From assembly GCA_040389185.1 (NCBI GenBank), contig JAZKAJ010000017.1, forward strand, positions 1 through 55,253: DNA of 55,253 nucleotides, read 5' to 3'. A program made the translations under genes and the position numbers. Below are positions 54,555 through 55,253 of the stretch, one piece after another. The first letter of the stretch is position 1. The number at the start of each line of letters is the position of its first letter. The notes below the pieces were generated by a model, which was not told the origin of the DNA, made no database searches, and saw only the letters and a list, made by a program, of their open reading frames with translations. The stretch comes from Patescibacteria group bacterium. GTDB taxonomy: Bacteria > Patescibacteriota > Minisyncoccia > Phycocordibacterales > CAIRYW01.

Positions 54555-54651
54555 AGAAATCACTTTTTTTAAGAGGCTTCGGAGCTGGGTAAGCGAGACT
54601 TGAGCAAAAATTCACCAGAATTTTATGCGTACTCATAAAAAAGGGATTTCT
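54555..54651. repeat. Inverted-repeat-bounded intergenic element
   Basis: AGAAATCACTTTTTT (54555-69)/AAAAAAGGGATTTCT (54637-51), one mismatch, 67-nt spacer. Confidence 0.6.
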
Positions 54652-54661
54652 GTAGTAGTGC

Positions 54662-54690
54662 TTGACAAATAAGTGGGGGTATGCTAATAT
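54662..54690 (+). promoter_or_regulatory. Strong sigma70-type promoter
   Basis: TTGACA(54662)-17-TAATAT(54685) with extended TGn. Confidence 0.75.
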
Positions 54691-55090
54691 TATCTCACTG
54701 TTCGTTAAAGACCCCGAAAGATACGAATCTTCAATAATTAAGATTCTGCATCATCTATGCAGTTTCGACGCTATAAATCTCTAAGCAATGGGACAATTTA
54801 TTGTCTTTTGATATTGTTTAAAGGACGCTTTGGTTTGCCTAGTCTTCACTGAAGCCATCCTCAGAACACTATTTTACTTTTAATCTAGCATTAAAAGTAT
54901 TGCTCAGAGATTTATATAGTCGAATCTCTCTTGGAACAGAATTGAATCTATATTCAGTATACCCCTCTATGCTCGTTTGTAATCTTTACGAAAAAAGATT
55001 TTTAGGTTGTATTTTCGACCTCTTCGTTTGGTATTGTTAAAGTAATAATTATAAAATCCCTCAACTATATTTTTGAAAGAAAGGATAATA

Positions 55091-55192
55091 ATGTACTTAA
55101 TAGAAAACTCTAATAACGGATACCAAACGAAGGGAAAGAAAAAAATCGATTTAAAAATATGGATTTATGGTTTAGGAATATATACAAAATGA
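55091..55192 (+). CDS. Possible 33-aa peptide MYLIENSNNGYQTKGKKKIDLKIWIYGLGIYTK
   Basis: AAAGGA 6-7 nt upstream of ATG; stop overlaps the terminator. Could be a chance ORF. Confidence 0.3.
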   Translation: MYLIENSNNGYQTKGKKKIDLKIWIYGLGIYTK

Positions 55193-55218
55193 GCGACGCC
55201 GCAGGCGTCGCTCATTTT
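55186..55218. terminator. GC-rich intrinsic terminator
   Basis: AAAATGAGCGACGCC-GCA-GGCGTCGCTCATTTT. Confidence 0.85.
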
Positions 55219-55253
55219 CTTATTCATAAATCTTGAATCGTAAATCCTATGCC

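What the first reader, a model, noticed from the sequence alone, without database searches (positions are those of the whole stretch)
54662..55218. Candidate ~520-nt highly structured RNA behind a consensus promoter, downstream of the tRNA-Ile module
Seen: TTGACA-17-TGcTAATAT predicts a start near 54697, and a GC terminator ends the interval at 55218 with no ORF >=60 aa. A 25-nt long-range stem (54765-89 with 54899-923, two small mismatched spots) closes a multibranch domain containing GACAAT/ATTGTC, an AGGA/TCCT arm, CTTCA/TGAAG and a perfect 10-bp TACTTTTAAT/ATTAAAAGTA hairpin. More hairpins are GAATCTT/AAGATTC, CTGCAT/ATGCAG, TGAAT/ATTCA and AATCTTT/AAAGATT, plus a 13-bp stem 55022-34/55120-32. 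Established: some large bacterial ncRNAs (GOLLD, ROOL) often occur beside tRNA genes. Inference: an undescribed large ncRNA or a very long regulatory leader; I see no tmRNA, RNase P or T-box signature.
Basis: partly seen in the sequence, partly recalled or inferred. Interest (0 to 1): 0.68.

Follow-up and report, generated by a model that had tools for sequence, protein, structure and literature searches.

The report
New four-armed small RNA gene
The flagged stretch holds a real, strongly promoted gene for a tightly folded non-coding RNA: its roughly 165-base four-armed core is kept at the same chromosomal spot in a whole class of ultra-small (CPR/Parcubacteria) bacteria, matches no catalogued RNA family and has no known job, while the "520-base" size comes from add-ons found only in this genus.

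Summary
Folding z-score is -8.8.

The unit is composite, however. The conserved part is a 165-nt four-way junction (54762-54926, + strand). It was found once per genome in 134 of 401 genomes sampled from the class, including all 20 from the window's order. In every locus checked it lies between ruvB and a PilB-type ATPase gene.

- **Structure:** 93% of base-pair cells are kept, and 39 of 55 pairs show compensatory changes.
- **Promoter:** a consensus extended -10 promoter precedes it in 89 of 100 loci.
- **Expression:** short contigs covering just this RNA appear in several public RNA runs where the neighbouring genes do not.
- **Add-ons:** the 66-nt leader, a weak internal terminator and a second 3' hairpin domain are seen only in this genus. 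The tRNA-Ile neighbour was seen only in this genome.
- **Excluded identities:** no Rfam 15 family matches. RNase P RNA, tmRNA and 5S rRNA lie elsewhere in the genome. The SRP GTPase domain (Ffh/FtsY) was not found. It is not GOLLD- or ROOL-like.

Every position conserved at 95% or more sits in a helix. That argues for a protein-binding scaffold or decoy RNA, with 6S RNA as the closest analogue, rather than a riboswitch or ribozyme. Function is unproven.

The parts
54662..54690 (+). Sigma-70-type promoter with extended -10: TTGACA, 17 nt, TGcTAATAT. Predicted start near 54697.
   Evidence: The same TTGACA-N14-TGnTAnnnT promoter lies 5-124 nt before the RNA in 89 of 100 class-wide loci.
54697..54761 (+). 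5' leader seen only in this genus. It has two hairpins (GAATCTT/AAGATTC and CTGCAT/ATGCAG) and a 'GUUCGUU' motif at its start.
   Evidence: The hairpin next to P1 covaries within the genus (CTGCAT/ATGCAG, CTAT/ATAG, TCACACA/TGTGTGA). The leader is variable in length or absent elsewhere.
54762..54926 (+). Conserved four-way-junction RNA core. P1 is 54764-54789 with 54899-54924. P2 is 54790-54796 with 54801-54807. P3 is 54810-54834 with 54848-54873. P4 is 54875-54884 with 54890-54899.
   Evidence: Covariance-model scores: 157 bits on + against 57 bits on -. 93.1% of cells are paired and 39 of 55 pairs are compensatory. Fold. Class-wide distribution.
54927..54980 (+). 3' tail carrying the motif GUAUAC at 54957-54962. 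Relatives have GUAUACYC or GUACYCCUC.
   Evidence: The motif occurs in 27 of 100 downstream regions against 5 of 100 on the reverse complement. It is an order-level feature, not class-wide.
54981..55003 (+). Weak intrinsic-terminator-like hairpin, AAUCUUU-ACGAAA-AAAGAUU followed by U5. Probable main 3' end of the RNA.
   Evidence: A hairpin plus U-run sits at this position in genus members. A 419-nt contig of run X7 matches the window only as far as 55003 and ends 6 nt later. The scan did not call it, because the stem has no G-C pairs.
55004..55150 (+). Second structured domain seen only in this genus: a long hairpin based on 55020-55034 with 55120-55134. It is present only in read-through transcripts.
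   Evidence: z-score -4.04. Conserved, with compensatory changes, in five other sequences from the genus. Absent from G006 and G003 and from other genera. Strand is inferred from a U-G wobble in two relatives.
55186..55218 (.). Strong bidirectional intrinsic terminator, shared by read-through RNA transcripts (+) and pilB (-).
   Evidence: 15 pairs, 8 G-C, with T-runs on both strands.
55224..55253 (-). Probable last codons of the convergent PilB/GspE-type ATPase gene. The gene continues at the start of contig C11.
   Evidence: The ortholog of the relatives' downstream gene maps to C11:1-1410 (-) at 94% identity. The frame at the C17 end reads GIGFTIQDL-stop. The join across the contig gap is inferred.

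Best explanation
The interval is an independent, strongly transcribed non-coding RNA gene on the + strand. Its functional unit is the 165-nt four-way junction at 54762-54926. In it the 5' and 3' ends pair in a 26-bp closing helix, P1. P4 stacks directly on P1. P3 is a long arm carrying the most conserved base pairs, and P2 is a variable hairpin.

The RNA belongs to an undescribed family. The family is inherited vertically, one copy per genome, between ruvB and pilB across a class of Parcubacteria/Paceibacteria.

In this genus the gene has gained three add-ons: a 66-nt leader, a leaky AU-rich terminator at about 55003, and a read-through 3' hairpin domain that ends at the terminator shared with pilB. 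In this species a tRNA-Ile/editing-domain cassette has also been inserted between ruvB and the RNA's promoter.

Shown here: the gene, its strand, promoter, fold, distribution, and its presence in RNA libraries.

Inferred: it works in trans as a stable protein-binding RNA (a scaffold or decoy of a ribonucleoprotein), not by sensing a ligand, by catalysis, or as a leader. The most concrete candidate mechanism is 6S-like: a rod of two long helices around a central branched region that binds RNA polymerase holoenzyme.
For: **Gene and strand**
- A consensus extended -10 promoter is conserved on the + strand in 89 of 100 loci.
- Covariance-model scores are about 100 bits higher on + than on - at order level.
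- Near-invariant U-G/G-U pairs would be mismatches on the - strand.

**Fold**
- 93.1% of cells are paired, against 35-51% when partners are slid.
- 39 of 55 pairs have compensatory changes, and 0 of 500 shuffles reach the observed values.
- Mutual-information analysis recovers the same helices and no pseudoknot.

**Family**
- 134 of 401 class genomes and 20 of 20 sampled from the window's order have it.
- ruvB and pilB flank all eight distant loci tested and the 26 BLAST loci.

**Expression**
- Contigs of 155-216 nt cover 54737-54941 at 95-99% identity in RNA-labelled runs X25, X31, X35 and X33.
- The flanking 6 kb is essentially uncovered in X25, X31 and X35.
- Pieces of a relative's tmRNA and RNase P RNA occur in X25 and X31 at similar word depth.

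**Protein-binding rather than ligand or catalysis**
- All 16 positions conserved at 95% or more lie in helices (15 in model pairs, and A22 pairs with U152 in 88 of 100).
- No other unpaired position reaches 90%.
- The junction strands are short and variable.

**6S-like traits**
- Size 148-217 nt and ends paired in a long closing stem.
- A second long arm lies opposite, with a hairpin on the 3' side of the centre, as in the Patescibacteria 6S hits.
- No RF00013 6S was detected in this class, while 36 of 401 genomes elsewhere in the phylum have one.
Against: - No experiment or stranded raw read was available. The RNA evidence is assembled contigs without strand, and some 'RNA?' libraries may contain DNA.
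- No protein partner is identified.
- Against the 6S reading specifically: no Rfam 6S model gives even a weak hit in 21 members.
- The centre is a tight four-way junction whose two side hairpins covary, not an open bubble.
- The 6S loci of other Patescibacteria are not at the ruvB-pilB site.
- The absence of RF00013 hits from the roughly 25 same-class genomes in the phylum sample is statistically weak, since only 9% of the phylum sample scores.
- About two thirds of sampled class genomes gave no hit with the filtered search. The family may therefore be less universal than a housekeeping role suggests, or simply too divergent to detect.
Confidence: 0.5

Rival explanations
1. It is a base-pairing regulatory small RNA. 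A single-stranded seed pairs with mRNAs, for example at Shine-Dalgarno sequences. The seed could be the 3' tail motif GUAUACYC / GUACYCCUC or a hairpin loop. The four-way junction would serve only as a stability module.
For: A pyrimidine-rich, anti-SD-like tail motif lies between the core and the terminator in many order-level members. The gene has the promoter-to-terminator layout typical of trans-acting sRNAs.
Against: The tail motif is missing in most class-level members, where pilB abuts P1 and no tail exists. No unpaired position is conserved at 90% or more. The loops of P2, P3 and P4 are variable. The short invariant core and tail motifs tested showed no repeated matches elsewhere in the genome.
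Confidence: 0.12
2. It is a cis-acting element of its neighbours. Convergent transcription from the strong promoter interferes with or terminates pilB. Alternatively, the divergent promoter and structure control ruvB.
For: Synteny with ruvB (divergent) and pilB (convergent) is unbroken in all loci examined. In many genomes the RNA ends within a few nt of the pilB stop. Here the terminator is shared.
Against: Transcriptional interference needs no covarying 55-pair four-way junction. In this genome about 760 bp, including a tRNA and a gene, separate the promoter from ruvB, yet the RNA is unchanged. In this genus 290 nt and two terminators separate the core from pilB.
Confidence: 0.08
3. It is a riboswitch-like aptamer or a ribozyme, acting as an orphan in trans or on itself.
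For: Multi-helix junction RNAs of this size are often aptamers or ribozymes. A near-invariant tandem U-G/G-U in P3 could be a metal site.
Against: There is no downstream co-oriented gene. No junction or loop nucleotides are conserved. No Rfam riboswitch or ribozyme model matches.
Confidence: 0.05
4. One reading: one ~520-nt large structured RNA of the GOLLD/ROOL type, functionally tied to the adjacent tRNA gene.
For: The whole 54697-55218 interval folds with z = -8.8. A 591-nt contig in a 'metagenomic RNA-Seq' run spans 54660-55134.
Against: Only 165 nt are conserved beyond the genus. A terminator-like hairpin splits the unit at about 55003. The short RNA-run contigs stop at 54894-54970. No relative has a tRNA nearby. 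GOLLD and ROOL models do not match. The 591-nt contig may be DNA.
Confidence: 0.04
5. It is a DNA-level element: a miniature inverted-repeat transposable element or a protein-bound palindrome.
For: A 25-bp inverted repeat bounds a ~110-bp core. Several hits lie near contig ends.
Against: There is one copy per genome at one syntenic site. Compensatory changes occur in internal helices, and G-U pairs favour one strand. A dedicated promoter is present. There are no viral or mobile copies.
Confidence: 0.02

Closest known systems
6S RNA (SsrS; Rfam RF00013 and lineage-specific 6S families)
   Same: About 150-200 nt, with 5' and 3' ends paired in a long closing helix. A second long arm lies on the other side of a central irregular region, and a hairpin sits on the 3' side of that centre. 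It is a single-copy, syntenic gene with a strong sigma-70 promoter and is abundant in RNA libraries. Conservation is of shape rather than of unpaired sequence. No canonical 6S was detected in this class.
   Different: No covariance-model similarity at all. The centre is a tight four-way junction with covarying P2 and P4, not an open bubble. It is not syntenic with the 6S genes found in other Patescibacteria. RNA polymerase binding and product-RNA synthesis are untested.
Bacterial Y RNAs (YrlA) bound by Ro60/Rsr
   Same: The ends pair in a helix that is sequence-conserved within the order. A branched, tRNA-like four-way topology has one arm stacked on the closing helix with no linker. A protein-scaffold role is presumed.
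   Different: No Rfam Y RNA match. No T-arm-like GGUUCGA motif. Neighbours are ruvB and pilB, not rsr or rtcB. Presence of a Ro60 homologue was not tested.
SRP (4.5S) RNA
   Same: A small, abundant, hairpin-rich housekeeping RNA that standard searches fail to find in these genomes.
   Different: No domain IV motif or GNRA apex; the apex of P3 is the most variable part. The SRP54-type GTPase domain shared by Ffh and FtsY was not found in this genome or in 66 other Patescibacteria genomes searched. Loss of SRP subunits in many CPR bacteria is already published (PMC8080830).
GOLLD / ROOL large RNAs
   Same: Structured, function-unknown bacterial RNAs discovered by comparative genomics.
   Different: Those are 500-800 nt, often phage-borne or next to tRNAs. 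This family has a ~170-nt chromosomal core with fixed ruvB/pilB neighbours, no phage copies and no tRNA linkage.

Membership tests
6S RNA (RF00013 and related) | Match to a curated 6S covariance model | tested here: not met
   No 6S-family hit at E<=10 on the locus. RF00013 found nowhere in the genome at E<=10. No hit at E<=1 in 20 diverse members.
6S RNA (RF00013 and related) | About 180-nt RNA whose ends form a long closing stem opposite a long terminal stem | tested here: met
   Length 148-217 nt, median 173. P1 is 26 bp and P3 is 20-28 bp with internal loops.
6S RNA (RF00013 and related) | Large, mostly single-stranded central bubble that mimics an open promoter | tested here: not met
   Both strands of the centre are covarying hairpins (P2, P4). 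Junction linkers are short: no linker between P4 and P1, and only a few nt at the other junctions. P2 is lost in one member (L022), so a partly open 5' strand is possible in some.
6S RNA (RF00013 and related) | Binds sigma-70 RNA polymerase holoenzyme and templates product RNA | not testable with these tools
   Needs biochemistry.
SRP RNA (RF00169) | Model match and domain IV motif, with Ffh present as partner | tested here: not met
   RF00169 found in 0 of 31 relatives and not in this genome. The motif search found only a coding sequence. PF00448 absent. tblastn and DTAGR scan negative.
RNase P RNA / tmRNA / 5S rRNA | Being the genome's copy of that RNA | tested here: not met
   RNase P RNA is at C1:37505-37926. 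tmRNA is at C16:37399-37793. 5S is at about C16:51173-51237.
GOLLD / ROOL | Rfam model match, more than 500 nt conserved, frequent tRNA or phage context | tested here: not met
   No Rfam hit. Conservation is limited to 165 nt. No tRNA in 20 relatives' loci. No viral copies.
Riboswitch / ribozyme | Conserved unpaired nucleotides forming a pocket or active site; for riboswitches, a downstream regulated gene | tested here: not met
   All 16 positions conserved at 95% or more are helical. The next gene is convergent.
Y RNA | Rfam match and an adjacent or present Ro60 (TROVE) gene | tested here: inconclusive
   No Rfam Y RNA hit. The neighbours are ruvB and pilB. Presence of a TROVE protein elsewhere in the genome was not tested.
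MITE / mobile inverted-repeat element | Multiple dispersed copies and target-site variation | tested here: not met
   Single copy per genome at one syntenic site.

The most novel reading that the evidence does not exclude
The four-way-junction RNA is neither a 6S analogue nor any other known housekeeping RNA. It would be the RNA subunit or dedicated ligand of a so-far unknown ribonucleoprotein specific to Paceibacteria-type CPR bacteria. A protein would read the conserved P1/P4 stack and the AGGAC/UAUCCU-CUGG segment of P3. The RNP could be functionally tied to one of the ring ATPases (RuvB or the PilB-type ATPase) beside which the gene sits in every locus checked across the class.
Probability: 0.3. 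Interest if true: 0.85.

Novelty: categorically new. Interest (0 to 1): 0.62.

Why it matters
CPR/Patescibacteria are a large share of bacterial diversity. They have tiny genomes in which little is dispensable.

This RNA is single-copy and highly expressed. Its fold has been kept by compensatory changes across a whole class, and it is present in every sampled genome of this order. That makes it a candidate new housekeeping RNA class.

If it is a functional 6S analogue, it widens the structural definition of RNA polymerase decoys. If it is not, it points to an unknown ribonucleoprotein in organisms that have already lost the SRP.

Practically, the covariance model gives a ready annotation for a gene that current pipelines miss. 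It also shows that the "520-nt" appearance in this genome is a lineage-specific elaboration of the core gene.

Tried and rejected
- **Rfam 15:** searched at gathering and at permissive thresholds on the locus, on 20 relatives' loci and on 20 distant members. Only chance or terminator-type hits came back.
- **Standard housekeeping RNAs:**
  - RNase P RNA, tmRNA and 5S are located elsewhere.
  - SRP RNA is rejected: no model hit, no motif, and no Ffh/FtsY GTPase domain. The absence of SRP subunits in many CPR bacteria is already in the literature.
- **6S by synteny:** 6S genes of other Patescibacteria are not next to ruvB or pilB and share no sequence with this RNA.
- **Minus-strand RNA or ruvB leader:** rejected by covariance-model scores, G-U pairs and promoter conservation.
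- **Mobile element or phage origin:** rejected. The non-CPR 18-mer matches in Comamonas, Variovorax, Aquimarina and others are chance matches, and none is hit by the model.
- **Pseudoknots or tertiary pairs:** mutual information on 57 and on 100 sequences found only extensions of P3 and one non-canonical C-A/U-C covariation in its internal loop.
- **Pairing of the 5' 'CUGUUC' with 'GAACAG' after P1:** seen in this genus, but not consistently elsewhere.
- **RNA runs for the 3' domain:** none listed. This is uninformative, because that part is species-specific.
- **Literature searches** for a described Parcubacteria RNA of this kind found nothing.

Full report
**1. The observation**

The window is the whole of contig C17 of a 997-kb, 29-contig, 95%-complete genome. 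Matching records are named Parcubacteria, Paceibacterota or Candidatus Taylorbacteria MAGs.

- TTGACA-17-TAATAT preceded by TG lies at 54662-54690.
- A 15-bp, 8-G-C hairpin at 55186-55218 reads as a terminator on both strands.
- No ORF in the interval exceeds 46 aa.
- The minimum-free-energy fold of 54697-55218 contains all the named helices.

Folding z-scores against dinucleotide shuffles:

| Interval | z-score |
|---|---|
| 54697-55218, + strand | -8.84 |
| 54697-55218, - strand | -7.87 |
| Core 54762-54926 | -6.76 |
| 3' domain 55004-55150 | -4.04 |
| 54697-55008 | -4.72 |

**2. What is conserved**

BLAST against 60 relatives found the interval in 33 genomes. Only query positions about 100-265 (window 54761-54926) matched beyond the genus.

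Alignment of 26 sequences gives a four-way junction. Thirty-two of 54 predicted pairs show compensatory changes.

A covariance model (R1) and a second built from 57 sequences (R2) were used to collect more members. On the 57-sequence alignment:
- 93.1% of base-pair cells are standard pairs, against 35-51% when the 3' partners are slid by 1-3 columns.
- 39 of 55 pairs have changes on both sides.
- The covariation score is 0.44, against 0.06-0.11 for slid structures.
- 0 of 500 shuffles reach the observed values.

Mutual information on 57 and on 100 sequences recovers the same helices. It adds extensions of P3 and gives no convincing pseudoknot. At class level even the inner P1 pairs, invariant within the order, covary (for example A-U 59 / G-C 40 at one pair).

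In window coordinates:
- P1: 54764-54789 with 54899-54924
- P2: 54790-54796 with 54801-54807
- P3: 54810-54834 with 54848-54873
- P4: 54875-54884 with 54890-54899

**3. Strand, promoter and ends**

Order-level members score about 100 bits better on the + strand, for example 157 against 57 bits here. The margin is smaller for the most divergent class-level members. The near-invariant tandem U-G/G-U in P3, and many other G-U pairs, would be A-C mismatches on the other strand.

A TTGACA-N14-TGnTAnnnT promoter lies 5-124 nt upstream of P1 in 89 of 100 loci. Most of the rest have TTGACA with a plain -10. Where the distance is 5-10 nt, transcription must start essentially at P1.

Downstream, many class members have the stop codon of the convergent gene within a few nt of P1, and a U-run directly after P1. 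The minimal RNA is therefore P1 to P1, 148-217 nt with a median of 173.

**4. Context**

In all 26 BLAST loci and in all eight distant loci tested, the RNA lies between ruvB (divergent) and a ~460-aa GspE/PilB-type ATPase gene (convergent). The eight distant loci include two from another family of the class and one from another class.

In this genome the PilB gene continues at C11:1-1410, so the contig ends inside it.

None of 20 relatives' loci contains a tRNA. It sits between ruvB and the RNA's promoter.

**5. What is special to this genus**

- **Leader.** The 66-nt leader has two hairpins. The one next to P1 covaries among genus members.
- **Weak terminator.** After P1 comes a tail with GUAUAC at 54957-54962. 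An AU-only hairpin plus U5 follows at 54981-55003. A hairpin plus U-run sits at this position in genus members.
- **Second domain.** 55004-55150 is a further long hairpin. It is conserved, with compensatory changes, in G007, G002, G001, G004 and G005. For example, CTTCGTTTGG/CCAAACGAAG becomes CTTATTTTGG/CCAAAATAAG, and TCC/GGA becomes TTC/GAA. It is missing in G006, G003 and other genera.
- **Strong terminator.** The bidirectional terminator at 55186-55218 then serves read-through transcripts and pilB.

The "520-nt RNA" is thus leader, conserved core, tail, leaky terminator and a genus-specific 3' domain.

**6. Distribution**

| Search | Sample | Hits |
|---|---|---|
| R1 | Phylum-wide, 401 genomes | 9 |
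| R2 | Class, 401 genomes (283 genera) | 134 genomes, 97 genera |
| R2 | Same-order genomes within that class sample | 20 of 20 |

Each genome has one locus. The filters used for large samples lose weak matches, so these are lower bounds.

There are no copies in viral contigs. The 18-mer matches in non-CPR genomes are at the number expected by chance, and the model hits none of them.

**7. Expression**

The conserved core is held by many RNA-labelled public runs.
- X25 is a 13-Mb run. It has a 216-nt contig that starts at 54755 and runs about 29 nt past 54941.
- X31 has a 207-nt contig covering 54737-54931.
- X35 has a 155-nt contig covering 54774-54920 with one mismatch.
- X33 has a 172-nt contig covering 54737-54894.

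In X25, X31 and X35 the surrounding 6 kb, including ruvB, ruvC and the editing-domain gene, is essentially uncovered. Pieces of a relative's tmRNA and RNase P RNA occur in X25 and X31 at similar word depth, 2.8-7 against 5.2-5.3.

These are assembled contigs without strand information, and some libraries may contain DNA. They show presence and relative abundance, not exact ends. A 419-nt contig of unknown kind (X7) matches the window only as far as 55003, the weak terminator.

**8. What it is not**

- No Rfam 15 family matches at any threshold, on this locus or on 20 diverse members.
- RNase P RNA (C1:37505-37926), tmRNA (C16:37399-37793) and 5S rRNA (C16, about 51.2 kb) are elsewhere.
- SRP RNA is excluded.
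  - There is no RF00169 hit in this genome or in 30 relatives.
  - The apex of P3 is variable rather than a conserved GNRA motif.
  - The SRP54-type GTPase domain (Ffh/FtsY) is absent from this genome.
  - It was also not found in 66 other Patescibacteria genomes, while 14 of 14 controls are positive.
  - The absence of SRP subunits from many CPR bacteria is already published (PMC8080830).
- It is not a leader, because the next gene is convergent.
- It is not a mobile element, because it is single-copy and syntenic.
- It is not GOLLD- or ROOL-like.

**9. How it most likely works**

All 16 positions conserved at 95% or more across 100 sequences lie in helices. They are C-U/A-G and an A-U pair in inner P1, AGG/UCCU and GG/C in P3, and one U in the P4-proximal part of P1. 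No other unpaired position reaches 90%. Junction strands and all three hairpin loops vary, and P2 can be lost.

Riboswitches and ribozymes conserve unpaired pocket nucleotides. Base-pairing sRNAs conserve a single-stranded seed. This RNA conserves shape and a few base pairs, as protein-binding RNAs such as 6S, Y and SRP RNAs do. It also has protected, paired ends, a very strong promoter and high apparent abundance.

I therefore take it to be a stable trans-acting protein-binding RNA. The only concrete known mechanism that fits its size and two-arm architecture is 6S-like sequestration of RNA polymerase holoenzyme. That would also fill a gap: RF00013 finds 6S in 36 of 401 Patescibacteria genomes, but in none of this class.

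Against the 6S reading:
- There is no model similarity.
- The centre is a tight four-way junction rather than an open bubble.
- The 6S genes of other Patescibacteria lie elsewhere.

I put the general "protein-binding RNA" reading at about 0.5. Within it, the 6S-like mechanism is about 0.2 and an unknown partner about 0.3.

**10. Relation to earlier notes of this scan**

The same family has been reported repeatedly from other genomes. Those reports give the same synteny, strand, promoter, absence from Rfam and "closest known: 6S". They are AI notes, not independent evidence, but each of those claims was re-derived here from this window.

This window adds:
- the genus-specific leader, leaky terminator and 3' domain;
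- the cassette insertion that uncouples the RNA from ruvB without changing it;
- the public RNA-run evidence;
- the observation that every highly conserved position is helical.

**11. Verdict**

This is a real, undescribed, class-wide structured RNA gene of unknown function. The flagged 520-nt unit is a lineage-specific elaboration of a ~165-nt core.

Noticed in passing
window 54564-54641; also C7:5533-5593, C7:67565-67665, C7:42616-42659, C19:18688-18742, C11:77280-77311, C9:26667-26693, C21:23256-23284 of the same genome: A dispersed ~60-100-nt repeat lies just upstream of the RNA's promoter. Its consensus is ...AAGRCTTCGSAGSYGGGTAGCCGAGACYGAGCAAAAWTTCAnCAGAAWTTTATGCG, with an internal AAAATTC/GAATTTT palindrome. 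At least seven other copies are in the genome. Short pieces of it also occur in contigs of RNA runs X24, X25, X28 and X31. Its nature (MITE-like, REP-like or a regulatory site) is not resolved.
   Followed up: partly
whole genome G000 and 66 other Patescibacteria genomes: No SRP54-type GTPase domain (Ffh or FtsY) and no small SRP RNA was detected, while all control genomes are positive. A published paper already states that SRP subunits are absent from many CPR bacteria (PMC8080830), so this is not new. It does mean no SRP RNA should be expected here.
   Followed up: yes
G000 C1:37505-37926 (-) and C16:37399-37793 (+): The RNase P RNA matches the bacterial type A model over its full length, but at only 50 bits against a gathering score of 100. 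ARAGORN misses the tmRNA that Infernal finds at 109 bits. Standard annotation would miss or under-call both.
   Followed up: no
G000 C16:32599-32675 and C16:50514-50587: A second tRNA-Ile(UAU) gene exists on another contig. ARAGORN also reports a 'tRNA-???' with a two-base anticodon next to tRNA-Thr(CGU).
   Followed up: no
window 55224-55253 and G000 C11:1-1410: Contig C17 ends and contig C11 begins inside the same PilB/GspE-type ATPase gene. The two contigs are therefore neighbours. No exact end overlap was found. Several relatives' assemblies also break within or just after the RNA locus.
   Followed up: partly
Patescibacteria genomes G196, G107, G080, G108, G156, G241 and others (loci L172-L177): Canonical 6S RNA (RF00013) is detectable in 36 of 401 sampled Patescibacteria genomes. 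All are outside the class of this window, and none of the six loci fetched lies at the ruvB-pilB site.
   Followed up: partly
window 54957-54962 and the corresponding tails of relatives: Many members of the order carry a palindromic GUAUAC or GUAC, followed by a pyrimidine run (CYCCUC), in the single-stranded tail after P1. It occurs in 27 of 100 downstream regions against 5 of 100 on the reverse complement. It is absent where pilB abuts the RNA.
   Followed up: partly
public RNA runs X25-X29, X31, X34-X37 (coded organisms A-D): The core RNA of this genus appears in RNA libraries filed under single named organisms, including 14-Mb runs. This suggests that Parcubacteria of this genus live in those cultures or samples.
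   Followed up: no
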